The notes: a model not told the origin generated them from the sequence alone. Shown: positions 6,732-63,747, counted from the stretch's first letter. The stretch is 64,000 nucleotides of DNA from an uncultured Bacilli bacterium (GCA_934096805.1 CAKOMW010000002.1:11736-75735), one strand, 5' to 3'. Numbers and translations: made by a program.

Positions 6732-6760
6732 TTGAAAAAAGTATTTTTTTGTTATAGAAT
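6732..6760 (+). promoter_or_regulatory. Sigma-A-like promoter (TTGAAA-N17-TAGAAT) of variable-family copy 1
   Basis: -35 TTGAAA at 6732-6737, 17-bp spacer, -10 TAGAAT at 6755-6760. The same architecture is conserved upstream of copies 2, 4 and 5. Confidence 0.45.
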
Positions 6761-6874
6761 TAGACTATAGAAAACTAAAAAGGAGGACAGGTGTAATTGT
6801 AGGTTATAATTATAAACCACATAATATCGGGTAAAATAATTCGAAAATTTACATTTATACACCTAACAAGCAAT

Positions 6875-8461
6875 ATGATAAACAAACATTCGTCTGGGGG
6901 GGGGCAAAATACTAACAACCCTATAAATAAAAAAAGAAAGATACTATACTTAGTAGCCTTATCAATGTTTAGCATAGGTATAATAACACTAAGCACTTAT
7001 GCACTATATAATAATGAACTAATAACAGGTATAAATAAAATAGAAACAGGACAAGTAAAAATGTCCTACACAGAAGTAAATGAACTAAGCTTAAACAACG
7101 CCCTACCTATGAAAGATGAAGAAGGTAAAAAACTTAACAATTACTTTGATTTTACTGTGTCATCATATATAAAAACAAAAACAGATGATAACAATGAACA
7201 AGTATTAAAATATAATATAATCCTAGAACCAACATATTTTTCCGCACTAGGACAATCAGCTTCCTTACAAGAAATATCTGCATCAGAAATGGCAGAATAT
7301 TATCGTATAATTAATTCGGTTTATCACTTCAAAACATATCTAACAAAAATAGATGACAATGGAACAGAAACAGAAGTAGCAAAGCCAATTAACGTTGAAG
7401 ATTTAAATGGAGTTATAACCCAACAACAAGAAACATTCAAAAACGCCAAAGAACCAGTAACAACAAAGTATAGGCTAAGAATTTGGATAGACTATGAAGT
7501 AGATGCCAACAGCATAGTATGGAAAAAATTAGAACAACTTGGAGGAGCAACAATAAAATTTAGAGTAAACGTAAACACAGACAAAATAGAGCAAACTACT
7601 ACTATACCAATACTTAATCTACCAGTAGGAACAAGCCAAATAAAAAAAGTAACTCATGGTATGAGCTATACTTTACAAGTAGATAATAGGTTTGCAACAG
7701 AATATAGATATCAAGGAACCGATCCTAACAACTACATAAAATTTAATAATGAACTATGGAGAATAATCGGAGTAATCCCAACCGATGATGGAACAGGTAA
7801 AGTAGAAAATAGATTAAAAATAATAAGAAATGAATCAATCGGAGAAATGCCATGGAATGCTTGTGAGTATTCAAATATTGGTAGTGATAGTAATCCTGTA
7901 TATACATGCAATGACACAGGTAAATTCCTAAATGACTGGACTGGATCAACCTTAAACACTTACTTAAACACAACTTATTACAATTCCCTAACCAAAGAAG
8001 CAAGAGACATGATAGGAACAACAAAGTATTATCTTGGAAGTTCAGGCGATGAATTTAATGATTACATATGGGAAGCAGAAAGGTCAAACGAAAGTAAAAA
8101 CTATTATTCATATAATGGTGTGAATAATCCCTTGTCAGAAACAAATAAAATATCACTAGTTTATCCAAGTGATATATATTACGGTTATAACTATGAAATT
8201 CCAATTTTATTATATCAAGCAGACTTATTATCTGTTTTTGAATATTCTAAGATTTTAAAATTGAATTGGAGCAAAACTGATTATGTAAAGACAAGCGTCG
8301 ATAGTAGCCATACGATCAACTTTAATGATGATATTCATGTAGATATCTTTGATAATATGGCAACCCCTTATGTGTATCCAGTCCTAAGTCTCTCATCTAA
8401 TGTAAAAATATCCGGAGGAACTGGAACAAGCACTGACCCTTATACCTTATCCCTTCAATAA
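6875..8461 (+). CDS. Poly-G phase-variable surface protein family, copy 1 (full-length, in frame). N-terminal signal anchor, conserved central WRIIG..PTxD..G.VENR..II module, C-terminal LSLSSNVKISGG.GTS..PYTLS.
   Basis: Continuous 528-aa ORF. N-terminal TM ILYLVALSMFSIGIITLSTYALY. Paralogous to the ORFs at 36.5, 44.6 and 60.2 kb. Confidence 0.7.
   Translation: MINKHSSGGGQNTNNPINKKRKILYLVALSMFSIGIITLSTYALYNNELITGINKIETGQVKMSYTEVNELSLNNALPMKDEEGKKLNNYFDFTVSSYIKTKTDDNNEQVLKYNIILEPTYFSALGQSASLQEISASEMAEYYRIINSVYHFKTYLTKIDDNGTETEVAKPINVEDLNGVITQQQETFKNAKEPVTTKYRLRIWIDYEVDANSIVWKKLEQLGGATIKFRVNVNTDKIEQTTTIPILNLPVGTSQIKKVTHGMSYTLQVDNRFATEYRYQGTDPNNYIKFNNELWRIIGVIPTDDGTGKVENRLKIIRNESIGEMPWNACEYSNIGSDSNPVYTCNDTGKFLNDWTGSTLNTYLNTTYYNSLTKEARDMIGTTKYYLGSSGDEFNDYIWEAERSNESKNYYSYNGVNNPLSETNKISLVYPSDIYYGYNYEIPILLYQADLLSVFEYSKILKLNWSKTDYVKTSVDSSHTINFNDDIHVDIFDNMATPYVYPVLSLSSNVKISGGTGTSTDPYTLSLQ
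6896..6904 (+). repeat. Homopolymeric G tract, n=9, in codons 8-10 of copy 1 (in-frame, ON)
   Basis: ATG ATA AAC AAA CAT TCG TCT GGG GGG GGG CAA AAT... reads through into the 528-aa ORF. Confidence 0.8.
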
Positions 8462-8491
8462 CATAAATTAAAACAATACATTATAAAAATC

Positions 8492-8515
8492 AAAAGTTCC
8501 AATCGGAACTTTTTA
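8492..8515 (+). terminator. Rho-independent terminator after copy 1
   Basis: Perfect 9-bp stem AAAAGTTCC / GGAACTTTT with loop AATC and a T-run. Confidence 0.6.
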
Positions 8516-8583
8516 AATTACTTTTCCTTGTCTTTTCCTAAAAAATATGATATAATTTACAAGTCGCATAAGAGGTGGTAAAA

Positions 8584-10401
8584 ATGGAAAATAAAAATGA
8601 AAAAATAATAAATATTGCAGTAGTAGCACACGTAGACGTAGGAAAATCAACCCTTGTAGACGCACTACTACAACAAAGCGGTTCCTTAGAAAAAGAAACA
8701 GACGAACATCAAATCATGGACAGTAATGACCTAGAAAAGGAAAGAGGAATAACAATCTATTCTAAAAACTGTTCAATAAGATACAAAGACTATAAAATAA
8801 ACATAGTAGACACTCCAGGACATGCTGACTTTTCAAGTGAAGTAGAAAGAATCATCAAAACCGTAGACACTGTAATCCTACTTGTTGATTCAGCTGAGGG
8901 AGTAATGCCTCAAACAAGATTCGTTCTACAACAAGCCCTAAAACAAAACCTTAATCCAATTCTGTTTATCAATAAAATAGATAAAAAAGACGCTAGAATA
9001 GACGACGTTGTAAACATGACATTCGATCTATTCGTTGAACTTGATGCCAATGACACTCAATTAGACTTCCCAATCGTCTATGGAATAGCACGTGACGGAA
9101 TTGCTAAACTTGACATCAATGACCCATCAAATGACATAACCCCACTTTTAGAAACAATCATAAATCACACCAAAGTATACGAAGGAAATGAAAACGACCC
9201 TTTACAACTACAAATATCATCACTAGAATACGATGATTACCTAGGAAGAATGGGAATCGGAAGAGTAACCAAAGGAATAATAAAAAGTGGAGAAATGGTA
9301 GCTATAAGCAAAAACAATAGTGAAATAATAAACAATCGTGTTGGAAAAATATTCGTAAACGAAGGAATAAAAAAGAAAGAAGTAAAAGAAGCAAGATACG
9401 GAGAAATAGTAACAGTTCAAACATATCCTGATATCAAAGTTGGAGACACAATTTGCGATGTAAACAATATAAATCCAATGGACCCAATTGAAATTGAAGA
9501 ACCAACACTATCAATGAACTTTCTAGTAAATTCATCACCATTCGCAGGAAGAAGTGGCAAATTCTTAACCAATAGACACATCAAAGAAAGACTTGACCGC
9601 GAACTAGAAACAAACGTCGGTCTAAAAGTAGAACCATTAGAAAACAGCGACGGATACAAAGTATCAGGACGAGGAGAACTACACCTATCAATTCTCTTAG
9701 AAAAAATGAGAAGAGAAGGCTACGAACTATCAGTATCAAAACCAGTCGTGCTTTTTAAAGAAGAAAATGGTATTAAAGAAGAACCATATGAAAAAGTAAT
9801 AATAAACGTTCCAAATGACTACAGTGGTACTATTATAAATGACTTAAACGAAAGAAAAGGAATAATGGAAGAACTATCAAACAATGAAAGCTACACCAAA
9901 ATAATCTTTTCCGTGCCAACTCGTGGTCTAATTGGATATCGTAGCAATTTCATAACTAATACCAAAGGTGAGGGAATAATGGTAAGAAGCTTCGATTCAT
10001 ACAAACCATATGCCGGTCCAATAAAAGGAAGAAAAAACGGAGTATTAGTTTCTTGCGAAAATGGTACAACAATGGCTTATTCTCTATACAATCTAAGCGA
10101 CCGTGGAACAATGATTGTATCCCCATCAACCGAAGTATATGAAGGCATGATAATAGGAATAAACAACAGAGACAACGACCTAAACGTTAACCCTTGCAAA
10201 AACAAACAATTAACAAACACCAGAGCAGCAGGAAGTGACGATGCCTTAACCCTAATAAACCCTAAAAAATTCACTCTAGAAGAAGCCCTAGAATTTATAG
10301 AAAACGATGAACTAGTAGAAATAACCCCAGACAGCATAAGACTAAGAAAAAAGATACTAGATGAAAAAGAAAGGTACAGAGTCCAATCTAAGAACTCTTA
10401 A
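8584..10401 (+). CDS. typA: Translational GTPase TypA/BipA
   Basis: G1 AHVDVGKST, DTPGHADF, NKID. EF-G-like domains. SD AGAGGTGG before the ATG at 8584. Confidence 0.9.
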   Translation: MENKNEKIINIAVVAHVDVGKSTLVDALLQQSGSLEKETDEHQIMDSNDLEKERGITIYSKNCSIRYKDYKINIVDTPGHADFSSEVERIIKTVDTVILLVDSAEGVMPQTRFVLQQALKQNLNPILFINKIDKKDARIDDVVNMTFDLFVELDANDTQLDFPIVYGIARDGIAKLDINDPSNDITPLLETIINHTKVYEGNENDPLQLQISSLEYDDYLGRMGIGRVTKGIIKSGEMVAISKNNSEIINNRVGKIFVNEGIKKKEVKEARYGEIVTVQTYPDIKVGDTICDVNNINPMDPIEIEEPTLSMNFLVNSSPFAGRSGKFLTNRHIKERLDRELETNVGLKVEPLENSDGYKVSGRGELHLSILLEKMRREGYELSVSKPVVLFKEENGIKEEPYEKVIINVPNDYSGTIINDLNERKGIMEELSNNESYTKIIFSVPTRGLIGYRSNFITNTKGEGIMVRSFDSYKPYAGPIKGRKNGVLVSCENGTTMAYSLYNLSDRGTMIVSPSTEVYEGMIIGINNRDNDLNVNPCKNKQLTNTRAAGSDDALTLINPKKFTLEEALEFIENDELVEITPDSIRLRKKILDEKERYRVQSKNS

Positions 10402-11419: not shown

Positions 11420-11505
11420 ATATTACTCCTATAAAAAAAGTATATCACAAACCAAAAAATAAAACAAACATTGCAAATAATAAATATATTTAATATAATA
11501 TAAAT

Positions 11506-12249
11506 ATGGAAAAAGACATGAAAATATATAGACAATTATTAAATCAAAAAACATTCAAAATGGTAGACAAAAACTTCCCATCATATGAACCGTACAAAAA
11601 AGAAAAACAAAAACACTTAAAAAATCAAATAGACCTAACAAACTTTACTAAAGAAATAAACGAAAACAATAAAAAAGATATACTATTAGAAAGCTTAGAC
11701 AACATAAAAGAAGACTACATCTACCAAAGTAACATTCACGGTATTAATCACAATGAAAGAGTAAGCCTTTATGGATTCTACATAGGAGTAAAAAATAATC
11801 TCGAAGACCAAAACTTAAAGTTGCTTCTTGAAGCCTGTAAATACCATGATATAGGAAGAATAAACGATATTGAAGACAAAGCCCACGGTTATCGAAGTTC
11901 AAAAATGATTGAAACATTTGAGACCCTAACAAAAGAAGAACTAAAAGTCCTAAAATGTATGATAACCTATCATAGCATCGATGACTACCTATTAAGCAAC
12001 TTAGCAAACCATTGCGAAATAAAAGATAAAGATAACCTACAACTGCTATGTAACATCTTAAAAGATTCAGACGCTTTAGATAGAACTCGTGGTGGAACAA
12101 TATGGGGCTTAAACACCAACTTTCTAAGAACTGAACAAGCAAAGGAAATGGTATATTTAGCATATGAATTATTATATAACTATGAACAAATAAAGAAAGA
12201 ACAAAAAAACAAAGAAAGGAAAAAAGAATATGAAAGGAACTTATATTGA
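11506..12249 (+). CDS. HD-domain phosphohydrolase
   Basis: KYHDIGR ... H..D motif pattern, 247 aa. Confidence 0.55.
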   Translation: MEKDMKIYRQLLNQKTFKMVDKNFPSYEPYKKEKQKHLKNQIDLTNFTKEINENNKKDILLESLDNIKEDYIYQSNIHGINHNERVSLYGFYIGVKNNLEDQNLKLLLEACKYHDIGRINDIEDKAHGYRSSKMIETFETLTKEELKVLKCMITYHSIDDYLLSNLANHCEIKDKDNLQLLCNILKDSDALDRTRGGTIWGLNTNFLRTEQAKEMVYLAYELLYNYEQIKKEQKNKERKKEYERNLY

Positions 12250-17551: not shown

Positions 17552-17552
17552 A

Positions 17553-25369: not shown

Positions 25370-25969
25370 ATGTTAGTAATTTTTGAGGGATTAGATAATT
25401 GTGGTAAAACGACGTTAGTTCAAATGATAAAAGAATATTATATGAAATTAGATATTCCAGTAGAAATTTCAAAAGAGTTTGAAACAAATATTGGTAAAGA
25501 ATTAAAGCAAATGGCAAAATAAGGAACATTAGATCCGATTTTAAAGGCTTATTTATTTGCAACTGATAGATATATAAGAATGAAAAATATTACTAATGAT
25601 GATTTTAAAGAAAAAATAATGCTGTTTGATAGATATGTACCTTCCGCCTTAGCTTATCGTATGGTAGAAGGTGTAGATAAGAATTGGGTGGCTAACATCA
25701 ATTCGATTTTTCCAAAGGCTGATCTTGGATTTTTTATTGATATCACACCAGAGGACTCTATTAAGAGAAATACTGATGCAAAATTTAATATTAAATCATC
25801 TGCCGAGCACTTAGCAAAAGTTAGAAATGCATATTTATCTATTATAAATGAGAATAACCTAATACATGTTAATGGAATGCAACCTATTGAGTATATATTT
25901 GATGAAGTAATTAGTAATATTGAGGAGTACAGAAAAAGATATGAAAAAAGATACGGAAAAAGAATTTAA
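25370..25969 (+). pseudogene. Thymidylate kinase (Tmk)-like gene interrupted by an in-frame TAA at 25521-25523
   Basis: P-loop VIFEGLDNCGKTT, then a stop, then LFATDRY (LID) and DRYVPSALAYR (DRY motif) continue in the same frame. Confidence 0.5.
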
Positions 25970-36228: not shown

Positions 36229-36245
36229 AACAAACCAAAAGGTAC

Positions 36246-36274
36246 TTGAAAAAGTATCTTTTTTGTATTAAAAT
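36246..36274 (+). promoter_or_regulatory. Promoter TTGAAA-N17-TAAAAT of variable-family copy 2
   Basis: Same -35/-10 geometry as copies 1, 4 and 5. Confidence 0.4.
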
Positions 36275-36355
36275 TAAATTATAGAAAACTAAGGAAGGAG
36301 GAAGAAATTTTATAACAAACATACATATATTTGTTATGAGATTTTTGAATTTTTT

Positions 36356-37904
36356 ATGACAAATAAATATTCGTCTGGGGGGGGGGCAAAATACTACTAG
36401 CCCTATAAATAAAAAAGGGAAAACAATAAAAATAATATCAATAATAATACTTTTAATACTAATAGTAATTAGTATATCTTTTGCATTAGGTAATATTGAT
36501 ATAAATATACTAGGAAGAAGAAATATAAAAATATCTAAATGTGAACTAGATATAAACTTTAAAGAAAGTGAAGAACTAATGCTAGTAAGTAAATATCCCA
36601 TATCAAAAGAAGAAGCATTAAAGTATAATGCAAAAGAAATAAATATAACAAACAATTCTACATGTGATACAGCTTATTATAAAGTAACAATAAAAGACTT
36701 AGTAAATTCATCTATAAATAAAGATAAGATTAACTATCAAGTAATAGATAAAAGTACAAATACAGAAACAATAGATAAAAACCCAGATAACTTTAATATA
36801 AGTGATTCACTTACTAAAGGAAATACAAAAACATACACAATAAGACTATGGATAGATGAAAGTGCAACCAATACTGACTTATTTATAAATGGAGATACAA
36901 CAAAACCAATAGAATATAAATATGCACTTAACATAGAATCAAGTGATGAAGAGATAAAAGGAGCAGGCATGACAGCAACAGAATTTGCCCAAGCAAATGT
37001 AGGACAAAATGGTTTGGAACAAATAACACATACTATAGATAATACACTTCAAGTTGATGAAAGATTTGCAACAGAATATAGATACAGGGGAGGAAATTCC
37101 ACAGTAAATAATTGGGTATATTTTAACTGCAGTGATCCCTCTAATCAAACAGACTCAACATGCGAAAAATGGATGATAATTGGAGTAATTCCAACAGAAG
37201 ACGCAAATGGAAATGTTACAAACAGGTTCAAAATGCTAAGACAAATCATTCGTAATGGAGATTTGTGTATAATAAAACCATCAGGTGGAGGTGGCTCATC
37301 AGGTGGAGGTGGCTCATCAGGTGGAGGAAACGGTTCTACAGATACTTTGTATAGCTGCAACAATAATTACGCAAACAATACTATGTATAATTATTGTTTT
37401 TCGGAAAATATTATAAACTCTAACTATACAGATTATGTAGATTATGCAAAGTATTATCTTGGTGGTTATAGCTCAATAGACGTTACTCCAAAACAAATGT
37501 GGCAGTATGAGAGAAAAAATGAAGCTAACAGAGAAGGATATTTTTATAAAGATAATCAGTTGAATGTTACTAAAAAAGTTGCATTTTTAAGTATCAGTGA
37601 CCATGGATATGCCTCAAGTAACTGTGAAGATAAAACTTTAAACGGTGATAATTCAGACAACATTTATTCCTGTGATAATTGGATATTAGATAGGTTTGAT
37701 CAAGGGAACATTCGAATATTTATTAATGCAGGCTCTGCTAGTAACAAAAGTATTTATCATTTTTCATCGTCCAGGATTATTCTCAGTGAAATGAAAACTA
37801 ACAGTACCGCTCAAGTCATTAACGTCCTAACCCTCTCTTCCAACATTAAAATTACTGGAGGTAAAGGTACTAAGACTGAACCATACCAATTATCAGTGGA
37901 ATAA
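36356..37904 (+). CDS. Poly-G phase-variable surface protein family, copy 2. It is frameshifted in the G tract. The main ORF 36579-37904 is restored by -1 G.
   Basis: With G9 the reading frame gives MTNKYSSGGGQNTTSPINKKGKTIKIISIIILLILIVISISFALG.. (signal anchor), continuous with MLVSKYPIS... It contains a (GGGGS) linker repeat. Confidence 0.65.
36377..36386 (+). repeat. Homopolymeric G tract, n=10, in codons 8-11 of copy 2 (out of frame, OFF; G9 would be ON)
   Basis: ATG ACA AAT AAA TAT TCG TCT G10 then CAAAATACTACTAG gives TAG six codons later. Removing one G fuses to the 441-aa ORF. Confidence 0.8.
37281..37330 (+). repeat. 18-nt tandem repeat (TCAGGTGGAGGTGGCTCA) x about 2.7 encoding an SGGGGS linker in copy 2
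   Basis: PSGGGGSSGGGGSSGGGNGS in the ORF. The repeat is perfect at the DNA level. Confidence 0.7.
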
Positions 37905-41017: not shown

Positions 41018-41119
41018 TCTGTCTTTTAAAATAAAAAAACAAAAATCGAATTAACTTTCGGCTAATAACGACATTTTATTCATTATATTTTCTTATAATG
41101 TAACCATGAGGTGAATAAA

Positions 41120-41482
41120 ATGGTTTTAGCAAACAGAATAAAGCAGTGTAGAAAGAGCAAAAACATGACACAAGAAGAGCTAGGCAACCTTATAGACGTT
41201 TCTAAAGTAAGCATTTGCCAATGGGAAAAAGGTACAAAAACACCAAGTACCAAAAACCTGATATTACTCTCAAAAATATTCAACATTGAATTAGAATACC
41301 TAATAGGAAACGATAACTATGTAGTAGCATCAAATGACGAAAAATATGGAATGGCAATGGCCAAAGAAGAAATAGACATCATACGTGAATTAAAAAGACA
41401 CGATAAACTATACAAAGAACTACTAGAAAATCCAAAAAGAGCAGTAGAAAGAATAGAAAAGAGTATCTATAAACATATGTAA
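41120..41482 (+). CDS. XRE-family HTH transcriptional regulator (HipB-like antitoxin candidate)
   Basis: LANRIKQCRKSKNMTQEELGNLIDVSKVSICQWEKG helix-turn-helix. SD GAGGTGA before the ATG at 41120. Confidence 0.7.
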   Translation: MVLANRIKQCRKSKNMTQEELGNLIDVSKVSICQWEKGTKTPSTKNLILLSKIFNIELEYLIGNDNYVVASNDEKYGMAMAKEEIDIIRELKRHDKLYKELLENPKRAVERIEKSIYKHM

Positions 41483-41562
41483 ATAAATTATATATGTTTA
41501 TTTTTTTATATAGGAAAAAATAAAAAAAAATGATATAATATATAAAGAAAGAAGGTGTAACT

Positions 41563-42753
41563 ATGAAGTGCATATTAATGAATAAAAACACCCCTGTTTT
41601 AGTAGCAGAATACAATACAACCCTGAATGTATTTGACAGAATGTACGAAATTATAGACATCAACTACGCGCCATTAATCATTAAAAATTACTATGAAGAA
41701 GAACAAGATGCATTAATATTACTCAAAAGACTAGGGGAATGGTTTAACGGAAGAGGCATTCCATCATGGAGAGATAAACTAGACTTATTACTTCATAGAC
41801 TTAACATCGAAACCCCCACAGAATTATTAGATAAAGCCTTTGGACTTTCACTATCTGACCAATACTGGTTAAAACCATACGATTTAGAAATAAAATACGA
41901 TGACATCAACTTTTTTGATAATGACTTTGATTATGCTGAGTTTTTAGAAGCATCACTTTCACTCAATAGCAAAACCATAAAAAAAGAAGCATCATTAAAG
42001 ACACCAAATAATACAACAGATGGTATGCTAAAAAAAGCATGGATTATCGAAAATAAAACAAGATACCTATTAAAAGGTGGATACAAAAACGAAATTCTCC
42101 AACCATTTAACGAAGTTCTGGCATCAATGATTTGTGAAAGACTAGGATTTGACCATGTTACATACACATTAGACACCTATAAAGATACAGTCGTTTCAAA
42201 ATGTCCATGTTTTATAAACAAAAACACAGAACTAATTACTTGCTACCAAATAAGAAACAATATGAAAAGACATGACTCAGAAGAAGACTACGAAGATTAC
42301 ATCAAAAAACTGGAAGAAAACAACATAAAAGATGCAAGAATCAAAATAGAAAACATGTACATTCTAGACTTCCTTATAATGAATGAAGATAGACACTTAA
42401 ACAACTTTGGCATCATAAGAGACGTAAATACTTTAAAATGGATAGACGTTGCACCAATATTTGATAATGGTATGGCCCTTTCAATTCAAAGCTACGACGA
42501 TGAAGAGCTAATTATATCAGGGCATGGTAGATTATTCTACGAAATAAAACCATTCGATGAAATCATTAAAGTAGTAAAAGACATTACAAGAATAGATGTC
42601 TCAAAACTAGAAGACATCCCAGAAGAATTTGACAACATGTTACACAAATATCAATACCTAACCAAAATATCAGATAAAAGAATATATAGACTATGCGTAC
42701 TATTACAAAGACAAATAAATAAACTAAAAAAACTAATCGAAGAAGCCCAATAA
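41563..42753 (+). CDS. HipA-like Ser/Thr kinase family protein (toxin candidate)
   Basis: DFLIMNEDRHLNNFGII matches the HipA C-terminal catalytic motif (..L.GN.D.H.KN.S). About 400 aa. Downstream of the XRE regulator. Confidence 0.5.
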   Translation: MKCILMNKNTPVLVAEYNTTLNVFDRMYEIIDINYAPLIIKNYYEEEQDALILLKRLGEWFNGRGIPSWRDKLDLLLHRLNIETPTELLDKAFGLSLSDQYWLKPYDLEIKYDDINFFDNDFDYAEFLEASLSLNSKTIKKEASLKTPNNTTDGMLKKAWIIENKTRYLLKGGYKNEILQPFNEVLASMICERLGFDHVTYTLDTYKDTVVSKCPCFINKNTELITCYQIRNNMKRHDSEEDYEDYIKKLEENNIKDARIKIENMYILDFLIMNEDRHLNNFGIIRDVNTLKWIDVAPIFDNGMALSIQSYDDEELIISGHGRLFYEIKPFDEIIKVVKDITRIDVSKLEDIPEEFDNMLHKYQYLTKISDKRIYRLCVLLQRQINKLKKLIEEAQ

Positions 42754-42873
42754 ATAGCTTCTTTTTTCATGTAAATTAATGTAAAACAACAAAAAAAAAA
42801 GTTAAATCTATGTTTACAAACTTAATAAATACATAGTAAAATAATAATATAAAAAAAGAAAGGAGTTTTAAAT

Positions 42874-43863
42874 ATGGAAAAGAAAAATAATAAGGGGTTA
42901 ACAATAATAATTGTAACATTAATAGTCTTACTTCTAGGGGTAGTTTGTTATATTTATTATGATAAATTCTTAAACAATGATAATAACAATAATGTTAATA
43001 GCCCTAACAACACAAACAAAACGAAAGAAGATACTGATTTTTATTCTATTAATAATTTAGTTAAAAATCACTATATTAAAAAGTTAACTTCTACTACCAG
43101 CGATGGAATAGAAATAAAAGACGGCAGTGTCTACTATGTTGCTACAATCGGAGGGAAACTTATTAAAGACACTTCCATTACTGAACAACCAGTAGCAGTC
43201 TATTCAACCCTAAAAGGTGGTCTTGTTGGGCCTTTATCTTTATACGTCTTAACTAAAGAAAATAATCTTTACTATTGCATCCAAAATTACAGTGACAGTG
43301 AAACTGTTCCTACATTTACAAAAATAAATACTAAGAAAATTGCTAATGTTTATACAGAATATTTAAAAGGTGACAACTTTATCGGCGTTGACTACGGAGA
43401 TGGTAACCTATACATTCATTCTCCAGAAGGATTTACCAATACTTACAAAGAAACGTACAAATACCCTGATTATCAAGACGCATATAAAACAGCAGATACC
43501 ATTCTATGGAGAATTGATACAGATAAAAAATTATATGCCTTTGTTGTATCTGAAACAAACCCTGATAATGGAGACTATAAAGAAGTAACTTACAACCAAA
43601 AACCAGTTGTTGTTAAAAATACTTTTAATGGGTACTTAAATAATACAATTGTTAACTTTGTAATCGATAATGATAATAACTTATTAACAGATAGCAAAGA
43701 CAAGACTGATTTATCACTATACAAAAACTCTAAAGTTAAAGATGCAAAATATGAAAAAGATAAAGATGGAAACTATAACGTTACAGTCACTCTAGAAGAC
43801 GGAAGCAATATTTTTATAAGCAATGCTACACTTTCATCATTATATCTAAGAAACAATTCATAA
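42874..43863 (+). CDS. Hypothetical secreted/membrane-anchored protein
   Basis: SD AAAGGAG, N-terminal TM. 329 aa, N/D/Y-rich. Confidence 0.45.
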   Translation: MEKKNNKGLTIIIVTLIVLLLGVVCYIYYDKFLNNDNNNNVNSPNNTNKTKEDTDFYSINNLVKNHYIKKLTSTTSDGIEIKDGSVYYVATIGGKLIKDTSITEQPVAVYSTLKGGLVGPLSLYVLTKENNLYYCIQNYSDSETVPTFTKINTKKIANVYTEYLKGDNFIGVDYGDGNLYIHSPEGFTNTYKETYKYPDYQDAYKTADTILWRIDTDKKLYAFVVSETNPDNGDYKEVTYNQKPVVVKNTFNGYLNNTIVNFVIDNDNNLLTDSKDKTDLSLYKNSKVKDAKYEKDKDGNYNVTVTLEDGSNIFISNATLSSLYLRNNS

Positions 43864-43976
43864 GAGAAAAATAATTAATAAAAAAAGACTTCAATTTACA
43901 CAATGAAGTTCTTTTTTCTACATCTTAATGACATTTTTCAAGAAATTTGTTATACTTACCATAGGAGATGATTACT

Positions 43977-44399
43977 ATGAATAAAAAAGGCTTTACCCTA
44001 ATAGAACTATTAGCCATAATCGTAATCTTAGGAATACTAGCAGCAATGAGTACAATGATGGTAGGAAACTATGTAAAAAACTCTAAGAAAGATGCTACAA
44101 GAGTAACTGCTCAAACAATGATAAACGCCGTACTAGACGACTTAGAACTACTAGAAGTAAAAGATGAAACACCAGAAAATAAAACTTATGATTTTCTTGG
44201 AGAAAACAAAAACTTACTAGAAAAACCATTAAACAAAAGCCCTTGGGAATACAAAATAACAGCGGCAAAAGTATACTTAACAAACTATAGCAATATAACA
44301 ATATGTATAAAAGATGAAAAAGGAAACGGAGTAAAAGGAACAGAAGAACAAATAAAAAGTAATAAAGACTTAATATACGAAAATATAACTTGTAACTAA
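43977..44399 (+). CDS. Prepilin-type N-terminal cleavage/methylation domain protein (type IV pilin / ComGC-like pseudopilin)
   Basis: MNKKGFTLIELLAIIVILGILAAM class-III signal peptide (G|FTLIE). 141 aa. Confidence 0.65.
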   Translation: MNKKGFTLIELLAIIVILGILAAMSTMMVGNYVKNSKKDATRVTAQTMINAVLDDLELLEVKDETPENKTYDFLGENKNLLEKPLNKSPWEYKITAAKVYLTNYSNITICIKDEKGNGVKGTEEQIKSNKDLIYENITCN

Positions 44400-44412
44400 A
44401 AGGAGGAAAACT

Positions 44413-45886
44413 ATGAACAAATATTCGTCTGGGGGGGGGGCAAAATACTACTAACCCTATAAATAAAAAAGGGAAAACAATAAAAATAATATCAATAATA
44501 ATACTTTTAATACTAATAGTAATTAGTATATCTTTTGCATTAGGTAATATTGATATAAATATACTAGGAAGAAGAAATATAAAAATATCTAAATGCGAAC
44601 TAGATATAAACTTTAAAGAAAGTGAAGAACTAATGCTAGTAAGTAAATATCCCATATCAAAAGAAGAAGCATTAAAGTATAATGCAAAAGAAATAAATAT
44701 AACAAACAATTCTACATGTGATACAGCTTATTATAAAGTAACAATAAAAGACTTAGTAAATTCATCTATAAATAAAGATAAGATTAACTATCAAGTAATA
44801 GATAAAAGTACAAATACAGAAACAATAGATAAAAACCCAGATAACTTTAATATAAGTGATTCACTTACTAAAGGAAATACAAAAACATACACAATAAGAC
44901 TATGGATAGATGAAAGTGCCACCAATACAGACTTATTTATAAATGGGGATACAACAAAACTAATAGAATATAAATATGCACTTAACATAGAATCAAGTGA
45001 TGAAAAATTAAAAGGACCAGATTATGCTTTAGAGTTTGCCCAAGCAAATGCAGGACAAAATGGTTTAGAACAAATAACTCATACAATAGATAATACACTT
45101 CAAGTAGATAATAAATTTGCAACAGAATACAGATACAGAGGAGGAGATTCTGTAGTAAAGAACTATGTAACATTTAATAATGAAACATGGAGAATAATCG
45201 GAATAATACCAACTGAAGATACAAATGGTAATGTAGAAAATAGAATTAAGATAATAAGGGATACTTCAATAGGAAATAAATATTGGAATACAATTAAAGA
45301 TACAACAACTAATTCATATAATAACTGGGTAACAGGAACATTAAATACATACTTAAATAATGATTATTATAATACATTAAGTACTGATGCCAAGAATATG
45401 ATAGGAACAACAAAATATTATCTTGGAGGATATGATTCTTCTAATAAAACCTCCGACATAATGTGGCAATATGAAAGAAAGAATGATGCCAATAGAAGTG
45501 GCTACTATTATGGAACTAATCCAATAATGCAAAGTGATGCAAATAAAAAGATAGCAATAATGTATGCCAGTGATTATGGATATGGAGCATCAACAAGTTG
45601 TACGAATACATTGAAATATTATGCTGGCATAAATTATGATTCAAGTACAGAATGTAATAGAACAAATAATTGGTTAGATAAAAGTCAAGCCATATGGTTA
45701 CTTTCTCAGATTACAGCCGATTCCTACGGCGCTTTCAATATGAGCTCGAGTGGCTATGTCGATAACGGCGGCAACGTCGGCAACGACGAGTATGCAGTCC
45801 GCCCAGTCCTAAGTCTGTCATCTAACGTAAAGATTTCAGGTGGAGAAGGCACTTCGAGTAGTCCTTACACCTTATCAGAAAAATAA
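44413..45886 (+). CDS. Poly-G phase-variable surface protein family, copy 3 (frameshifted in the G tract). The start is 13 nt after the pilin-like gene, with SD AAAGGAGGA.
   Basis: About 590 bp of the 5' end are nearly identical to copies 2 and 4. C-terminal VRPVLSLSSNVKISGGEGTSSSPYTLSEK. Confidence 0.65.
44431..44440 (+). repeat. Homopolymeric G tract, n=10, in copy 3 (OFF; G9 would be ON)
   Basis: ATG AAC AAA TAT TCG TCT G10 CAAAATACTACTAA gives a TAA stop. Removing one G fuses to the 417-aa ORF at 44633. Confidence 0.8.
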
Positions 45887-51973: not shown

Positions 51974-51974
51974 A

Positions 51975-54813: not shown

Positions 54814-54814
54814 T

Positions 54815-56589: not shown

Positions 56590-58028
<1,439 letters not shown>

Positions 58029-58086
58029 AAAATATGATAAAATATATTAGTAGTACCCAAAATATAATAAAAAAGGAAGTGTTTTA

Positions 58087-59802: not shown

Positions 59803-59907
59803 AAAAGTTGAAATAGATTAATGATTAATTCTATTTCTTTTTTTCATATACTAAACTACATAATAGTGATAATAAGCGAAATCAAGAAGATAAAAAACAA
59901 AAGGTAC

Positions 59908-59936
59908 TTGAAAAAAGTAAAATTTTGATATAAAAT
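59908..59936 (+). promoter_or_regulatory. Promoter TTGAAA-N17-TAAAAT of copy 4
   Basis: Conserved with the other copies. Confidence 0.4.
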
Positions 59937-60015
59937 TAAGTTATAGAAAACTAAAGAGGAGGACAGGTGTAACTACAAAAATTCATGCATCATGTACAAA
60001 CACCTAATAAGTAAC

Positions 60016-61613
60016 ATGGTAAACAAATATTCGCTAGGGGGGGGGGGCAAAATACTACTAACCCTATAGATAAGAAAGGGAAAACAATAAAAATAATATC
60101 AATAATAATACTTTTAATACTAATAGTAATTAGTATATCTTTTGCATTAGGAAATATTGATATAAATATACTAGGAAGAAGAAATATAAAAATATCTAAA
60201 TGCGAACTAGATATAAACTTTAAAGAAAGTGAAGAACTAATGCTAGTAAGTAAATATCCCATATCAAAAGAAGAAGCATTAAAGTATAATGCAAAAGAAA
60301 TAAATATAACAAACAATTCTACATGTGATACAGCTTATTATAAAGTAACAATAAAAGACTTAGTAAATTCATCTATAAATAAAGATAAGATTAACTATCA
60401 AGTAATAGATAAAAGTACAAATACAGAAACAATAGATAAAAACCCAGATAACTTTAATATAAGTGATTCACTTACTAAAGGAAATACAAAAACATACACA
60501 ATAAGACTATGGATAGATGAAAGTGCAACCAATACTGACTTATTTATAAATGGAGATACGACAAAACCAATGGAATACAGATATGCATTAAACATAGAAT
60601 CAAGTGATGAATATATGAAAGTAGACTATGCATTAACCTTTGCTAAGTCAAAAGTAGGAACAGACGGACTAGAAATAGTAACCCATGAAATAGATGACAC
60701 ACTTCAAGTAGATAATAAGTTTGCTACAGAATACAGATATAGAGGAGGAGATTCCATAGTAAATAACTATGTAACATTCAATAATGAAACATGGAGAATA
60801 ATAGGAATAATTCCAACAGAAGATACAGACGGTAATGTAGAAAACAGATTTAAGATAATAAAAGATGAATCTATTGGATATTATGTTTGGGATAGTGATA
60901 CCGAAATAACATATGATTATGAAATAAATAATAATTTTAATCTTTTGAATAACAATAATAATGATATAATCACCCCAAATGATTTAATTAACCATAATGA
61001 AAAATATGAAACTATACAGACAGCACCTGATTTGGGAACAAAAAAATGTACTACTTGTAGTAATAATTGGGCTAGACCTAGTGCATTGAATACATATTTG
61101 AATAGTACATATTATAATTCAATAAATACTAATTCAAAAAATATGATAGGAACAACAAAATATTATCTTGGAGGATATAATACTTCTGATATAACAAATG
61201 ATGTAATGTGGCAATATGAAAGAAAGAATGATGTCAACAGAAGTGGTTATTATTCTGATACAAATCCAGTAATGTCAAATGATGCATCTAAGAGTATTGC
61301 ATTAATGTATGCCAGTGATTATGGGTATGGAGCCTCAAAAGAGTGTCCACAAACACTAAATAACTATAAGAACGATACATTATGTAAAATGACAAATAAT
61401 TGGTTAGATAAGTCTCTAAAGGAATGGCTACTTCCACAGTATCCAGATGGTGGTAGATTGTTTTATCTTGAGTCCAGCAACGTCGAACATTACAACGGTT
61501 GGACTCTGACTTACTATTCTTTTGCAGTTCGTCCAATTTTATCTTTATCATCCAACGTAAAAATTTCAGGTGGAGAAGGAACTTCTTCTAATCCATACAC
61601 TCTGTCACAATAA
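60016..61613 (+). CDS. Poly-G phase-variable surface protein family, copy 4 (frameshifted in the G tract)
   Basis: 5' about 590 bp nearly identical to copies 2 and 3. Divergent middle. C-terminal FAVRPILSLSSNVKISGGEGTSSNPYTLSQ. Confidence 0.65.
60037..60047 (+). repeat. Homopolymeric G tract, n=11, in copy 4 (OFF; G9 or G12 would be ON)
   Basis: ATG GTA AAC AAA TAT TCG CTA G11 CAAAATACTACTAACCCTATAG gives a TAG stop. The offset to the 60240 ORF is 224 nt, which is 2 mod 3. Confidence 0.8.
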
Positions 61614-61667
61614 ATTAATCAAAACTACTTGTATAAACATTAAATAAGTAGTATATTATATATAAAG

Positions 61668-61900
61668 AAGCACGTTCCTTGAACGTCGGCTTCCTAGTTT
61701 TGTAGAAAGCGACGCTTCTCTATATCAGAGAGACGTCGCTATTGTATTACATATAAAGTTTATGTATTAACATGATGATTATATATAATTGCAATAGGGA
61801 GATTATAAAAAACATTAAGATTGTACAATCTTTCTTGCTCATCATAATAACCACCTCACTTTCATAGAAAGTAAAGCCGACGCCCAAAGATACGTGCTAA
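61668..61900. repeat. GC-rich imperfect inverted repeats (AGCACGT..CGTCGGCTT / AAGCCGACG..ACGTGCT) plus a 13-bp palindromic hairpin, flanking a 150-bp AT-rich segment between copies 4 and 5
   Basis: 61668-61710 is reverse-complementary to 61861-61898 (16 matching positions in two blocks). Hairpin GCGACGCTTCTCT-ATAT-CAGAGAGACGTCGC at 61709-61739. Confidence 0.4.
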
Positions 61901-62060
61901 TATCACTATATACTATATAGAAACACAATGCAAATGAGCAAAAATGACATTTGGTATAAAAAATAGTGCACAAAATCAAGAATTGCCCTAAGGCAAAAAC
62001 AATTTTTAATATAAAAAAGGATACTAAAAAGTACTATTTTGTATAAATTAAAAAAATTTC

Positions 62061-62089
62061 TTGAAAAAGTATTTTTTTTGTTATAGAAT
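62061..62089 (+). promoter_or_regulatory. Promoter TTGAAA-N17-TAGAAT of copy 5
   Basis: Identical geometry and near-identical sequence to the copy 1 promoter. Confidence 0.4.
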
Positions 62090-62168
62090 TAAGTTATAGA
62101 AAACTAAAGAGGAGGACAGGTGTAAACAAAAAGATATATGCATGATACGCACACACCTAATAAGTAAT

Positions 62169-63747
62169 ATGGTAAACAAATATTCGTCGGGGGGGGGGGC
62201 GGAATACTAGTAATAAAGTAAAACAAAACCCCTTATTTAAAGATATAAACGACTATAATAAATATCTATTAAGTTTAATAGGTATTCTTTTTCTTGTAAT
62301 AACAGGAGTAATCTCTTATAATCTTACAAATGCATCATATGCAAAGTGGAGTAGTAGTATAGAGTCTAAGAATGTGTTGAAGCTTAGTGTGCAATCAGGT
62401 CTTGATAAAAGTGGTGCGAATAAACCAGAACTTACAAATAATATGATACCAGTATATTATGATAGTACAAATGCAGTATGGAGAAAAGCAGATGCTAATA
62501 ATAGTAAAGAAAATTATAAATGGTATGATTATGATAATAAGATGTGGGCAAATGCAGTAACTGTTACAGAAACTAATAGGAGTACTTATCTAAGTGCAAA
62601 TGTAGGTACAGAAATAAATATGAATGATATAAATACAATGTGGGTATGGATACCAAGGTATACTTATACATATTTAAATACAAATACACCACAAGAAATA
62701 AATATAAAGTTTGAAAAAGAAACAAATAGTACAGGCACAATAAAATGTACTGATAATGTATCAGGAAGTGGTACAACATCACAAACATGTACAGATACAA
62801 CAAATGGTTCTTTAGTTGCAGGAACATCTACATATACCCACCCAGCATTTACCTTTGGAGATAAAGAACTAAAAGGATTATGGGTAGGTAAGTTTGAGAG
62901 TAGTGCAACAACAATACCAACAAGTACTTCAACAACAGAATCTACAGTAATAATAAAACCAAATGTACAATCATTAAGATATAAAGCAGTATCGTATTTC
63001 TTTCGCGATGCCCGACAAATGGAGAAAGCAAATAATGTATATGGCTTTCCACAAAGTAGTAGTACAACATTTAATTGGAATGGAGAATTAAATGGAGATA
63101 CAAATAATATAGATATCCATATGATGAAGAATACAGAATGGGGAGCAGTAACATACTTATATCATTCTAAATATGGAAGATGCACAAATGGTAAATGTGA
63201 AGAGCTAACAATAAATAACTGTAATACTTATACAACAGGAATTGGAGCAGACTCAGTAAGTGCAAGTTATTCATCAACAACATGTACAACAGATAAGAAT
63301 AAATATAATGGAGAAAGTGGAGTAAAAGCGTCAACTACAGGAAATGTATATGGTGTGTATGATATGTCTGGAGGCCCATGGGAATATACAATGGGTAACA
63401 TGGTAAACTCCTCTAATCAATTTTATACATTATCTGCATCAAACTGGAGTACAACAACATATCCATTAGCAAAGTATTATGATAGTTATACATATAATGG
63501 TAGTTATACAACATATACAAGAGGAAGATTAGGAGATGCAATAGTAGAAATGAGTCCTTCATCTAGTTCTTATACTTCGTGGTATTCAGATTTCGCCTAC
63601 TTCCCGTACTCGTCCAATTCTTGGTTCACTCGTGGGGGTCACTACAATGATGGTCCGGACGCGGGCGTTTTCGGTTTCAGCTACGAGGTTGGTATTGCGG
63701 ACCATTACCACTCGTTTCGGGCCTCGCTCATCGCACAGGCCTCTTAA
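62169..63747 (+). CDS. Poly-G-switched membrane-anchored protein with a C-terminal FGE-sulfatase (formylglycine-generating-enzyme-like) domain. It shares only the promoter/leader/MVNKYSSGGG module with copies 1-4. Frameshifted in the G tract.
   Basis: With G10 the frame gives a TM anchor YLLSLIGILFLVITGVISY continuous with ORF 62374-63747. NVYGVYDMSGGPWEYT and WFTRGGHY...FR motifs resemble the FGE/SUMF1 family. Confidence 0.55.
62189..62199 (+). repeat. Homopolymeric G tract, n=11, in copy 5 (OFF; G10 or G13 would be ON)
   Basis: ATG GTA AAC AAA TAT TCG TCG G... The T to G change at the tract edge lengthens it. A TAA follows 7 codons later. The offset to the GTG at 62374 is 205 nt, which is 1 mod 3. 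Confidence 0.8.

What the first reader, a model, noticed from the sequence alone, without database searches (positions are those of the whole stretch)
6732..63747. Five genes share a promoter-leader-start module carrying a G9/G10/G10/G11/G11 homopolymer in codons 8-11: a candidate poly-G phase-variation system for surface proteins
The background is about 25% GC, so runs of 9-11 G are essentially never expected. Five occur in this window, and each sits at the same place in paralogous 5' ends (M-x-N-K-Y/H-S-S-GGG). Copy 1 (6896-6904, G9) reads through into a 528-aa signal-anchored protein. Copies 2 and 3 (G10) and copies 4 and 5 (G11) hit a stop within 5-8 codons, but each is continuous with a 417-457-aa ORF if the tract changes by -1 (copies 2, 3 and 5) or -2/+1 (copy 4). 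This ON/OFF-by-slippage layout is the hallmark of contingency loci in Campylobacter, Neisseria and Helicobacter. I do not recognise it as described for low-GC wall-bearing Firmicutes, and the protein family itself is uncharacterised. The result would be combinatorial, stochastic expression of up to five antigenically distinct surface proteins.
Basis: seen in the sequence. Interest (0 to 1): 0.92.

Follow-up and report, generated by a model that had tools for sequence, protein, structure and literature searches.

The report
Poly-G on/off switches on lectin-like surface genes
An uncultured human-gut bacterium carries many surface-protein genes that each start with the same short cassette holding a run of 9-11 G's. 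One-base slips in that run most likely turn each gene on or off at random; the trick is well known in Campylobacter and Neisseria, but I found no report of it for this lineage or protein family.

Summary
Five sense-strand poly-G runs (G9, G10, G10, G11, G11) lie 6-7 codons after the ATG of five paralogous genes. Only copy 1 is in frame. The other four stop after 13-17 codons, yet each keeps an intact ORF of 490-531 codons that a 1-base change would restore.

The window is a chromosomal segment of an uncultured, wall-bearing Bacilli MAG from Hadza/Nepal gut samples. Across 737 kb of the window plus related loci, 61 of 62 G>=7 runs sit in this same cassette (G8 x1, G9 x13, G10 x38, G11 x9). OFF copies almost always keep long ORFs. 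GGG is the rarest glycine codon (5%). Loci with identical flanks differ in tract length between samples (copy 2: G10 x5, G9 x1), and identical copy-4 products lie behind G11 or G10. Alleles with an interrupted tract also exist.

Best reading: classical slipped-strand, translational phase variation. It is a new member of a known kind. Switching itself has not been demonstrated; that needs read-level data.

The parts
6732..6760 (+). Copy 1 promoter: TTGAAA (6732-6737), 17-nt spacer, TAGAAT (6755-6760)
   Evidence: The motif CTTGAAAAA occurs only 4 times in the window, each time upstream of a family gene.
6782..6864 (+). Copy 1 leader: SD GGAGG (6782-6786) lies 88 nt before the ATG. GTG-TAA follows at 6791-6796. 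Stem arms AGGTGT (6789-6794) and ACACCT (6859-6864) close the inserted segment.
6875..8461 (+). Copy 1 CDS, 528 aa, in frame (ON). Poly-G G9 at 6896-6904 encodes Gly8-10 ahead of the hydrophobic signal/anchor segment.
   Evidence: The exact 528-aa product is on 9 public contigs. DUF6273 scores 20.6 bits, below the 23.5 cutoff.
36246..36347 (+). Copy 2 promoter (TTGAAA 36246-36251, TAAAAT 36269-36274) and SD (36297-36301, 54 nt before the ATG). A 17-bp leader hairpin follows. A uORF (MRFLNFL*) has its TGA overlapping the ATG.
   Evidence: (z = -3.9)
36356..37904 (+). Copy 2 gene, OFF as assembled. ATG 36356, G10 at 36377-36386, premature stop at 36398-36400. G9 restores a 515-aa ORF.
   Evidence: The same locus in other samples is G10 x4 and G9 x1.
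43968..44399 (+). 143-aa prepilin-type (N_methyl) pseudopilin-like gene immediately upstream of copy 3. It probably supplies copy 3's transcription.
   Evidence: PF07963; TIGR02532. The same synteny is seen in L001 and L082.
44402..45886 (+). Copy 3, OFF. SD at 44402-44406 (6 nt before the ATG), ATG 44413, G10 at 44431-44440, premature stop at 44452-44454. G9 restores 490 aa. It has no promoter module of its own.
   Evidence: The ortholog is also G10 in two other samples.
59908..60005 (+). Copy 4 promoter (TTGAAA 59908-59913, TAAAAT 59931-59936) and SD (59958-59962, 53 nt before the ATG). GTG-TAA lies at 59967-59972. Stem arms are 59965-59970 and 60000-60005.
60016..61613 (+). Copy 4, OFF. ATG 60016, G11 at 60037-60047, premature stop at 60067-60069. 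G9 or G12 restores 531 aa.
   Evidence: An identical downstream 457-aa product lies behind G10 in L084 and L085 and behind G11 in L105.
62061..62158 (+). Copy 5 promoter (TTGAAA 62061-62066, TAGAAT 62084-62089) and SD (62111-62115, 53 nt before the ATG). GTG-TAA lies at 62120-62125. Stem arms are 62118-62123 and 62153-62158.
62169..63747 (+). Copy 5, OFF. ATG 62169, G11 at 62189-62199, premature stop at 62208-62210. G10 restores 525 aa. Same switch cassette but a different, C-type-lectin/FGE-like ectodomain.

Best explanation
**What it is.** These are simple-sequence-repeat contingency loci. Each of the five genes encodes a secreted or membrane-anchored protein with a lectin-like ectodomain, and each begins with a conserved switch cassette. 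The cassette is ATG, then 5-6 codons (x-N-K-Y/H-S-x), then a sense-strand poly-G run, then CAAAATAC. In four of the five copies it comes with its own sigma-A-type promoter.

**How it most likely works.**
- The run lies in the N-terminal tail ahead of the hydrophobic signal/anchor segment. Changes in multiples of three only add or remove glycines there.
- Slipped-strand mispairing during replication adds or removes one G at a time.
- Only G9 or G12 (G10 for copy 5) joins the ATG to the 490-531-codon ORF. Any other length ends translation after 13-17 codons.
- Each gene therefore flips heritably, reversibly and independently, so a population carries a mixture of surface-lectin repertoires. This assembly is 1 ON and 4 OFF.

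**Shown here.** The anatomy, the frame logic, conservation of the tract, retention of ORFs in OFF copies, tract-length differences between samples, and the fold of copy 5.

**Inferred.** The slippage rate, reversibility within a clone, surface exposure, ligand binding, and the selective agent (host immunity, phage or glycan niche).
For: - **Non-random tracts.** Five G9-G11 runs occur against 0.11 G>=8 matches expected, and the window has no G run of 6-8.
- **Codon choice.** GGG makes up 33 of 629 glycine codons, yet the cassette uses GGG-GGG-GGG in every copy.
- **Frame logic.** One in-frame copy and four copies that a 1-base change would restore, each with no other defect.
- **Relatives.** In 737 kb of window plus fetched loci, 61 of 62 G>=7 runs lie in the same cassette context. 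Lengths are G8 x1, G9 x13, G10 x38 and G11 x9, in 50 distinct flank contexts from several species-level MAGs.
- **ORF retention.** Of 31 out-of-frame copies, 26 keep complete 338-602-codon ORFs, 4 run off the locus still open, and 1 does not.
- **Length differences between samples.** With identical flanks, copy 2 is G10 in five assemblies and G9 in one, and L086 is G10 against L094 G9. An identical copy-4 product lies behind G11 (window, L105) or G10 (L084, L085). Contig k141_3158 has copies 1 and 2 both ON, while the window has copy 1 ON and copy 2 OFF.
- **Allele types.** Public homologues include full N-termini (MNKYSSGGGQNT...), truncated calls from an internal Met (MLVSKYPIS...), and in-frame alleles with an interrupted tract (LGGRD, SGRGQ, YRGGQ).
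- **Cassette on different genes.** It is attached to at least three different anchor/ectodomain architectures.
- **Products.** Copy 5 has the C-type-lectin/FGE fold of DGR variable proteins. Copies 1-4 are DUF6273-like, and DUF6273 is described as C-type-lectin-like in phage receptor-binding proteins (PMC10743442). Some relatives end in dockerin domains.
Against: - **No read-level data.** Within-population heterogeneity and reversibility were not observed.
- **Majority states are fairly stable.** Copy 3 is G10 in 3 of 3 assemblies and copy 2 is G10 in 5 of 6. Either switching is not extremely fast, OFF is favoured, or the sampled strains are near-clonal.
- **Skew to G10.** 38 of 61 tracts are G10, one base longer than the ON length. 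This leaves room for an expression route from G10 templates, by recoding or by an alternative start.
- **Mismatch repair.** An intact MutS is encoded in the window (39-2537), unlike Campylobacter, which lacks mismatch repair.
- **Odd ribosome-binding layout.** In four of the five copies the only SD is 53-88 nt upstream of the ATG. Initiation at that ATG is therefore not straightforward.
Confidence: 0.75

Rival explanations
1. Recoding rather than heritable switching. RNA polymerase slippage on the 9-11-nt run, which is about the length of the RNA-DNA hybrid, or +1/-1 ribosomal slippage on rare GGG codons, yields some in-frame product from every allele. On this view the tract acts as a constitutive attenuator or noise generator, and most 'OFF' genes are in fact weakly expressed.
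For: - G10 dominates (38 of 61) and recurs at the same locus in independent samples.
- GGG is a rare and presumably slowly decoded codon.
- Transcriptional realignment on homopolymer runs is an established mechanism (PMC3711429).
Against: - A programmed recoding site should have a fixed length and a fixed shift direction. Here G9, G10 and G11 all occur and need 0, +1 or -1 shifts, and orthologues differ.
- Documented bacterial transcriptional slippage mostly involves A/T runs (PMC3711429).
- In-frame alleles with interrupted tracts exist. That fits escape from a switch better than it fits a required recoding signal.
- This rival can coexist with DNA-level switching.
Confidence: 0.12
2. Assembly or sequencing artefact. 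The true tracts are all in frame, and the apparent frameshifts are homopolymer-length miscalls in short-read metagenome assemblies.
For: - G9-G11 runs are difficult for library PCR and for consensus calling.
- All the data are metagenome assemblies. Several contigs break just after the tract.
Against: - Independent assemblies from different samples and assemblers reproduce the same out-of-frame lengths.
- 48 of 61 tracts are not G9. In the first 35 tracts only 4 were in frame. That would need a strong systematic +1 bias, which is not a known short-read behaviour (my own knowledge).
- Even if the lengths were miscalled, the conserved run of rare codons would still need explaining.
Confidence: 0.05
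3. Non-adaptive decay. The poly-G run is merely a mutational hot spot inherited by a recently expanded gene family, and the frameshifted copies are young pseudogenes.
For: - Most copies are out of frame.
- The family is large and recombining.
- One copy (L042) has only a 22-codon frame downstream of its tract.
Against: - 26 of 31 OFF copies keep complete 338-602-codon ORFs with no second lesion, and 4 more are still open at the end of the fetched DNA.
- The tract is retained across several species-level MAGs and on unrelated ectodomains, despite strong AT bias and a 5% GGG codon share.
- The same locus is ON in one sample and OFF in others.
Confidence: 0.05

Closest known systems
Campylobacter jejuni poly-G/C contingency genes (the 'phasome'; PMC6321876, PMC8355987)
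   Same: - Both are AT-rich genomes with many G8-G11 runs inside coding regions.
- A +/-1 slip toggles the reading frame.
- Many loci switch independently in one genome, giving combinatorial phasotypes.
   Different: - Campylobacter is a Gram-negative pathogen that lacks mismatch repair. Here MutS is intact.
- Its targets are mostly glycan-modifying enzymes. Here they are lectin-fold surface proteins.
- Its tracts sit at varied positions, not in one shared promoter-start cassette.
Neisseria opa genes (CTCTT repeats in the signal-peptide coding region; Murphy et al. 1989 as cited in PMC3894217)
   Same: - A multicopy family of surface adhesins.
- The repeat lies in the N-terminal leader region, so in-frame length changes do not alter the mature protein.
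- Each copy switches independently.
   Different: - The Neisseria repeat is a pentamer, not a homopolymer.
- The products are outer-membrane beta-barrels in a diderm.
- The proteins are unrelated.
Mycoplasma homopolymer switches (M. fermentans p78 poly-A, cited in PMC3711429; M. hominis vaa, from my own knowledge)
   Same: - The lineage is related to Bacilli.
- A homopolymer in the 5' coding region of a surface-protein gene produces frameshift ON/OFF switching.
   Different: - Those tracts are poly-A in wall-less organisms.
- They are single lipoprotein loci, not a cassette spread over dozens of paralogs.
Repeat-based switches in wall-bearing Firmicutes (Streptococcus gallolyticus pil1 leader peptide GCAGA repeats, PMC3894217; S. 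aureus SSRs, bioRxiv 10.1101/2025.07.08.663602)
   Same: Slipped-strand phase variation of surface structures or adaptive genes in Gram-positive bacteria.
   Different: - In S. gallolyticus the repeat acts through transcription attenuation via a leader peptide.
- In S. aureus the repeats are scattered, not attached to a dedicated family.
- Neither is a poly-G cassette on a multigene family.
DGR variable proteins (TaqVP 5vf4, TvpA 2y3c, Mtd 1yu0)
   Same: - Both systems diversify what a ligand-binding surface protein presents.
   Different: - DGRs rewrite the binding site through reverse transcription.
- Here no template repeat and no reverse transcriptase were found in the window.
- Diversity here comes from choosing which paralog is ON.

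Membership tests
SSR-mediated translational phase-variable (contingency) loci | A repeat tract long enough to slip (a G/C homopolymer of about 8 or more) lies inside the 5' coding region | tested here: met
   G9-G11 runs start 18-21 nt after the ATG in all five copies.
SSR-mediated translational phase-variable (contingency) loci | Tract-length changes toggle between a full-length ORF and early termination | tested here: met
   G9 or G12 (G10 for copy 5) gives 490-531 aa. Other lengths stop after 13-17 codons.
SSR-mediated translational phase-variable (contingency) loci | Tract length is polymorphic between strains or populations at the same locus | tested here: met
   With identical flanks, copy 2 is G10 x5 and G9 x1, and L086/L094 are G10/G9. 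An identical copy-4 product lies behind G11 x2 or G10 x2. The sample is small and comes from assemblies only.
SSR-mediated translational phase-variable (contingency) loci | OFF alleles remain otherwise intact, meaning selection maintains the gene | tested here: met
   26 of 31 OFF copies keep complete 338-602-codon ORFs, 4 run off the locus still open, and 1 does not.
SSR-mediated translational phase-variable (contingency) loci | High-frequency, reversible switching within a clonal population | not testable with these tools
   This needs per-read tract counts or cultured lineages.
Pfam DUF6273 (PF19789), for copies 1-4 | The score reaches the Pfam gathering threshold | tested here: inconclusive
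   [not shown]
C-type-lectin / FGE-sulfatase fold, for copy 5 | Fold similarity to solved members | tested here: met
   [not shown]
Diversity-generating retroelement target genes | A nearby template repeat matching the 3' variable region, plus a reverse transcriptase | tested here: not met
   The 3' ends of copies 1, 3 and 5 have no template-like second copy in the window; the only matches are the corresponding 3' ends of paralogs. The 40 largest flanking ORFs scanned with Pfam show no reverse transcriptase. Only the 64-kb window was tested.
Programmed frameshift or transcriptional-slippage genes | A conserved slippery site of fixed length that needs one fixed shift | tested here: not met
   Lengths range from 8 to 11. 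The shift needed is 0, +1 or -1 depending on the copy, and orthologues differ.
Type IV pilins / pseudopilins | Prepilin N-terminal cleavage/methylation motif (GFxxxE) | tested here: not met
   Copies 1, 3 and 5 get no N_methyl hit. Only the gene upstream of copy 3 has the motif. A few distant relatives of copy 5 do begin with a pilin-like N-terminus (P0230, P0238).

The most novel reading that the evidence does not exclude
The cassette may be more than a binary switch.

**A possible three-level output.** In the sister species the codon before the tract is TAT (or ATT). At G10 the last bases of that codon plus the first G form an in-frame ATG (or TTG) that reads straight into the ORF. Public gene callers annotate dozens of such MGGGQNTY... 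proteins. G9 could then give full output from the SD-served ATG. G10 could give low output by re-initiation at the tract-embedded start. G11 would be OFF. That would explain why G10 is by far the commonest state.

**An unusual ribosome-binding layout.** In the window's species four copies have 44-80 nt inserted between the SD and the ATG. A conserved short stem closes the insertion, and the SD is followed by a GTG-TAA start-stop. This suggests a split ribosome-binding site or ribosome-loading device layered on top of the DNA switch.

**A portable module.** The promoter-start-tract unit appears to have been grafted by recombination onto several lectin-fold families.
Probability: 0.15. Interest if true: 0.75.

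Novelty: new member of a known kind. Interest (0 to 1): 0.55.

Why it matters
Phase variation by simple repeats has been worked out almost entirely in cultured Gram-negative pathogens. Here the same logic appears on a large scale in an uncultured, small-genome Bacilli commensal found in Hadza and Nepali gut samples.

- **Scale.** At least 14 cassettes were counted in the loci fetched from one related MAG, and there are five in this 64-kb window.
- **Targets.** The switched proteins have the lectin-like fold that other microbes diversify with retroelements.
- **What it suggests.** Stochastic surface-lectin repertoires may be a general strategy of these gut bacteria, for coping with immunity, phage or changing glycans.
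- **Practical warning for annotation.** Most members of this family in public databases are annotated as N-terminally truncated proteins or with wrong starts (MLVSKYPIS..., MGGGQ..., and code-4 read-through calls).
- **Use in metagenomics.** The five tracts give direct markers for measuring within-host population dynamics from metagenomic reads.

Tried and rejected
- **DGR target.** Rejected for the window. No template-like repeat of the 3' ends was found, and no reverse transcriptase appeared among the 40 flanking ORFs scanned.
- **Phage or prophage origin.** PHROGs gave no hit for any of the five proteins. The cassette pattern gave 0 hits in viral contigs. The neighbours are housekeeping genes: MutS, BipA, EzrA, PBP, Alr, GatCAB, ProRS.
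- **Genetic code 4.** This would explain public gene calls that read through TGA, such as P0054. It is rejected: TGA ends 5 of 44 ORFs, Trp is TGG 91 times, and there is no in-frame TGA.
- **Pilin membership of copies 1-5.** Rejected.
- **Homology between the ectodomains of copies 1-4 and copy 5.** hhalign probability was below 1%.
- **PDB and NCBIfam searches for copies 1-4.** No PDB match and no NCBIfam match for copies 1, 3 and 5.
- **AF2 model of copy 1.** Too poor for firm fold assignment (pLDDT 58).
- **Second promoter giving a leaderless mRNA at the ATG.** Considered from the sequence alone. The -35-like hexamers are poor, so I dropped it.
- **Leader stem covariation.** The 6-bp stem is unbroken in 7 sequences, but changes are wobble-only with no compensatory pairs, and the folding energy is -4.5 kcal/mol. 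z-scores are not significant for copies 1, 4 and 5. This is suggestive only.
- **Copy 3 upstream gene and copy 2 truncated ORF.** Exact-product look-ups found nothing on record.

Full report
**1.

A search for G8 finds hits only at five + strand sites: 6896-6904 (G9), 36377-36386 (G10), 44431-44440 (G10), 60037-60047 (G11) and 62189-62199 (G11). Shuffles predict 0.11 matches against 16 overlapping matches observed. The window is 26-32% GC. It has no G run of 6-8 and no C run longer than 6, so the length distribution has a gap: either no long run, or one of 9-11.

Reading the sequence and translating it confirms each frame statement.

| Copy | ATG | Tract | As assembled | In-frame length and product |
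|---|---|---|---|---|
| 1 | 6875 | G9 | in frame, ends 8461 | G9, 528 aa |
| 2 | 36356 | G10 | MTNKYSSGGGAKYY* | G9, 515 aa |
| 3 | 44413 | G10 | MNKYSSGGGAKYY* | G9, 490 aa |
| 4 | 60016 | G11 | MVNKYSLGGGGKILLTL* | G9 or G12, 531 aa |
| 5 | 62169 | G11 | MVNKYSSGGGAEY* | G10, 525 aa |

GGG is the rarest glycine codon in 30 neighbouring genes (33 of 629, 5%). Three consecutive GGG codons in every copy are therefore not a product of codon usage.

**2. What the shared module really is**

An alignment of the upstream regions and a motif count show that CTTGAAAAA occurs exactly four times in the window. Each occurrence is upstream of copy 1, 2, 4 or 5. It forms a sigma-70/sigma-A-like promoter, TTGAAA-17 nt-TAGAAT or TAAAAT.

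Copy 3 lacks this promoter. It follows a 143-aa prepilin-type gene by 13 nt and has an ordinary SD 6 nt before its ATG. The part common to all five copies is the start-plus-tract cassette: ATG, 5-6 codons, Gn, CAAAATAC (CGGAATAC in copy 5).

There is an unexplained oddity. In copies 1, 2, 4 and 5 the only SD lies 88, 54, 53 and 53 nt before the ATG.
- In copies 1, 4 and 5 and four relatives the inserted segment is closed by a 6-bp stem, AGGUGU/ACACCU. The stem is unbroken in the seven sequences aligned (copies 4 and 5 and five relatives). It shows only wobble changes, no compensatory pairs, and weak energy.
- In copy 2 an unrelated 17-bp hairpin sits in the same place (z = -3.9).
- In copies 1, 4 and 5 the SD is followed by GTG-TAA.
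- Sister species have the plain arrangement GGAGGTAAAACTATG.

**3. Organism and context**

The flanking genes are chromosomal housekeeping genes of a wall-bearing monoderm. They include MutS, RNase R-like, BipA, alanine racemase, EzrA, PcrA, a PBP transpeptidase, signal peptidase I, EF-P, GlmM-like, HtrA, SufB, GatCAB, an LtaS-like sulfatase and ProRS. TGA is a stop codon and Trp is encoded by TGG, so the code is 11.

Exact and near-exact matches come from human-gut metagenome assemblies, including a Hadza/Nepal study contig. The closest genome records are four 'uncultured Bacilli bacterium' MAGs from Hadza samples. More distant relatives are Mycoplasma sp. CAG:611, Tenericutes UMGS1485 and Candidatus Onthousia. 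I infer an RF39/RFN20-like lineage from these names. That placement was not tested.

**4. The cassette is conserved and its length varies**

The first 80 related loci (494 kb) held 29 further G9-G11 tracts, and every one was in the same context. I then added a metagenome pattern scan and orthologous loci fetched through neighbouring genes.

The combined 737 kb contains 62 runs of G>=7 on either strand. Of these, 61 are in the cassette, with lengths G8 x1, G9 x13, G10 x38 and G11 x9, in 50 distinct flank contexts.

In the first set of 35 tracts, 4 were in frame, all G9. Of the 31 out-of-frame copies, 26 keep complete downstream ORFs of 338-602 codons, 4 run off the fetched DNA with the frame still open, and 1 (L042) has only 22 open codons.

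Comparisons of the same locus or gene between samples show length differences:
- Copy 2 is G10 in the window and four other assemblies, and G9 (ON) in ERZ27287093 contig k141_3158, all with identical flanks.
- The identical copy-4 product lies behind G11 in the window and L105, and behind G10 in L084 and L085. The L084 and L085 flanks are not identical to the window's.
- L086 is G10 and L094 is G9, with identical flanks.
- Copy 3 is G10 in all three assemblies.
- Copy 1's exact in-frame product is on 9 contigs.

Protein databases hold three kinds of N-terminus for this family: full (MNKYSSGGGQNT...), truncated calls from an internal Met (MLVSKYPIS...), and in-frame alleles in which the tract is interrupted (LGGRD, SGRGQ, YRGGQ). 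The YRGGQ cluster has 80 member sequences. Some paralogs have no tract at all (MKKYLEKFK...).

Together these are the expected comparative signatures of a contingency locus. They are not a demonstration of switching.

**5. What the genes encode**

Copies 2-4 are 97-98% identical over the first ~190 aa and 44-66% identical afterwards. At the DNA level the first 750 nt are 92-95% identical, followed by an abrupt drop. This is a mosaic of a conserved N-terminal half and a variable C-terminal half. Copy 1 is a distant member. Copy 5 shares only the cassette.

All five have a basic N-terminal tail and then a hydrophobic segment ending in S/T-x-A (ISFA, TYA, SYA). The tract therefore lies ahead of the signal or anchor. 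Whether the segment is cleaved is unknown.

The C-terminal half of copies 1-4 matches DUF6273.
- The window proteins score below the Pfam threshold, and half of the aligned homologues match at E<=1e-3.
- DUF6273 domains of phage receptor-binding proteins are described as C-type-lectin-like and as DGR targets (PMC10743442).

Some relatives end in dockerin domains, and a few start with pilin-like N-termini. I infer extracellular, ligand-binding proteins. The ligands are unknown.

**6. Mechanism and rivals**

The best-supported mechanism is slipped-strand mispairing that changes the tract by one base and so toggles translation of each gene independently. My confidence is 0.75.

- **Recoding (0.12).** Transcriptional or ribosomal slippage is a real possibility as a secondary route, and it would help explain the excess of G10. 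The spread of lengths and of shift directions argues against a programmed site.
- **Assembly artefact (0.05).** This is unlikely, because independent assemblies reproduce the same out-of-frame lengths.
- **Simple decay (0.05).** This is unlikely, because ORFs stay intact and the tract is conserved against strong AT and codon bias.

Points that weaken the main reading:
- There are no read-level data.
- Majority states are fairly stable across samples.
- MutS is intact.
- The distant SD is unexplained.

**7. Comparison with what is known, and novelty**

The system works like the Campylobacter poly-G genes. It also resembles the Neisseria opa family, a multicopy adhesin family with its repeat in the leader region. 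Homopolymer switches are known in Mycoplasma, and repeat-based switches are known in streptococci and staphylococci (PMC3711429, PMC3894217), so the mechanism is not new to Firmicutes.

Five literature searches found no description of a poly-G system in this lineage, on DUF6273 or lectin-fold proteins, or of a shared switch cassette of this kind. I rate it a new member of a known kind, with interest 0.55.

The most novel reading still open has probability about 0.15. It has three parts:
- A graded, three-level output in sister species, where TAT plus G10 creates an in-frame ATG.
- A split ribosome-binding site in this species.
- A promoter-start-tract unit that has been moved by recombination onto several lectin-fold families.

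Noticed in passing
window 6782-6874, 36297-36355, 59958-60015, 62111-62168: In four of the five copies the only Shine-Dalgarno sequence lies 53-88 nt upstream of the ATG. The inserted segment is closed by a short conserved stem (AGGUGU/ACACCU), or in copy 2 by an unrelated 17-bp hairpin. In copies 1, 4 and 5 the SD is followed by a GTG-TAA start-stop. Copy 2 also has a uORF (MRFLNFL*) whose TGA overlaps the ATG. Sister species have a normal 7-nt spacing.
   Followed up: partly
L002-L061, e.g. L021 about 2700-2790; weaker in window 36240-36262 and 59902-59925: In sister species the -35 hexamer sits inside a perfect 7-bp inverted repeat followed by a T run (AGTACTT-GAAA-AAGTACT-TTTTTTT). This could be an AU-rich terminator-like hairpin or a palindromic operator overlapping the promoter of almost every family member. 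It hints at insulation or common regulation of the family.
   Followed up: no
L002-L061 and L086-L096 (tract contexts listed): The codon before the tract is usually TAT (sometimes ATT or TCT). At G10 the junction therefore forms an in-frame ATG (or TTG, or CTG) that reads directly into the ORF. Public gene callers annotate many MGGGQNTY... proteins from it. G10 is the commonest length (38 of 61).
   Followed up: partly
window 36356-37110, 44413-45165, 60016-60770: Copies 2, 3 and 4 share 92-95% DNA identity over their first ~750 nt, then diverge abruptly to patches of about 77%. This mosaic suggests gene conversion of the 5' half, or diversifying selection on the lectin-like 3' half.
   Followed up: partly
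window 41111-44399: Upstream of copy 3 lie an HTH gene plus a HipA-like kinase pair (41111-41482, 41563-42753). They are followed by a 329-aa gene of unknown function and a 143-aa prepilin-type pseudopilin gene. The 329-aa gene, pilin-like gene and copy 3 arrangement is conserved in two other samples (L001, L082).
   Followed up: partly
window 25370-25969: Thymidylate kinase appears to be interrupted by an in-frame TAA at 25520-25522. The P-loop N-terminus (25370-25522) and the rest (25580-25969) are in the same frame. This could be a nonsense allele, a sequencing error or read-through. It is not associated with a homopolymer.
   Followed up: no
L100 and L101 (gene called from 2766); protein P0054: Some public gene calls for the copy 2 orthologue start at an upstream ATG and read through a TGA as Trp (MRFLNFLWQINIRLGGGQ...). 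They were evidently predicted with genetic code 4, whereas the window clearly uses TGA as a stop.
   Followed up: yes
proteins P0003, P0123, P0136, P0209, P0219, P0221: These are alleles in which the glycine tract is interrupted (LGRD, LGGRD, SGRGQ, YRGGQ, YGEGGF) while the protein stays in frame. They may be 'locked-ON' derivatives. The P0209 cluster has 80 member sequences.
   Followed up: partly
window 62072-62079 and 6745-6751: The promoter spacers of copies 5 and 1 contain T8 and T7 runs between the -35 and -10 hexamers. The spacer is 17 nt in all four promoters. A slip here would change promoter spacing and so provide a possible second, transcriptional dial.
   Followed up: no
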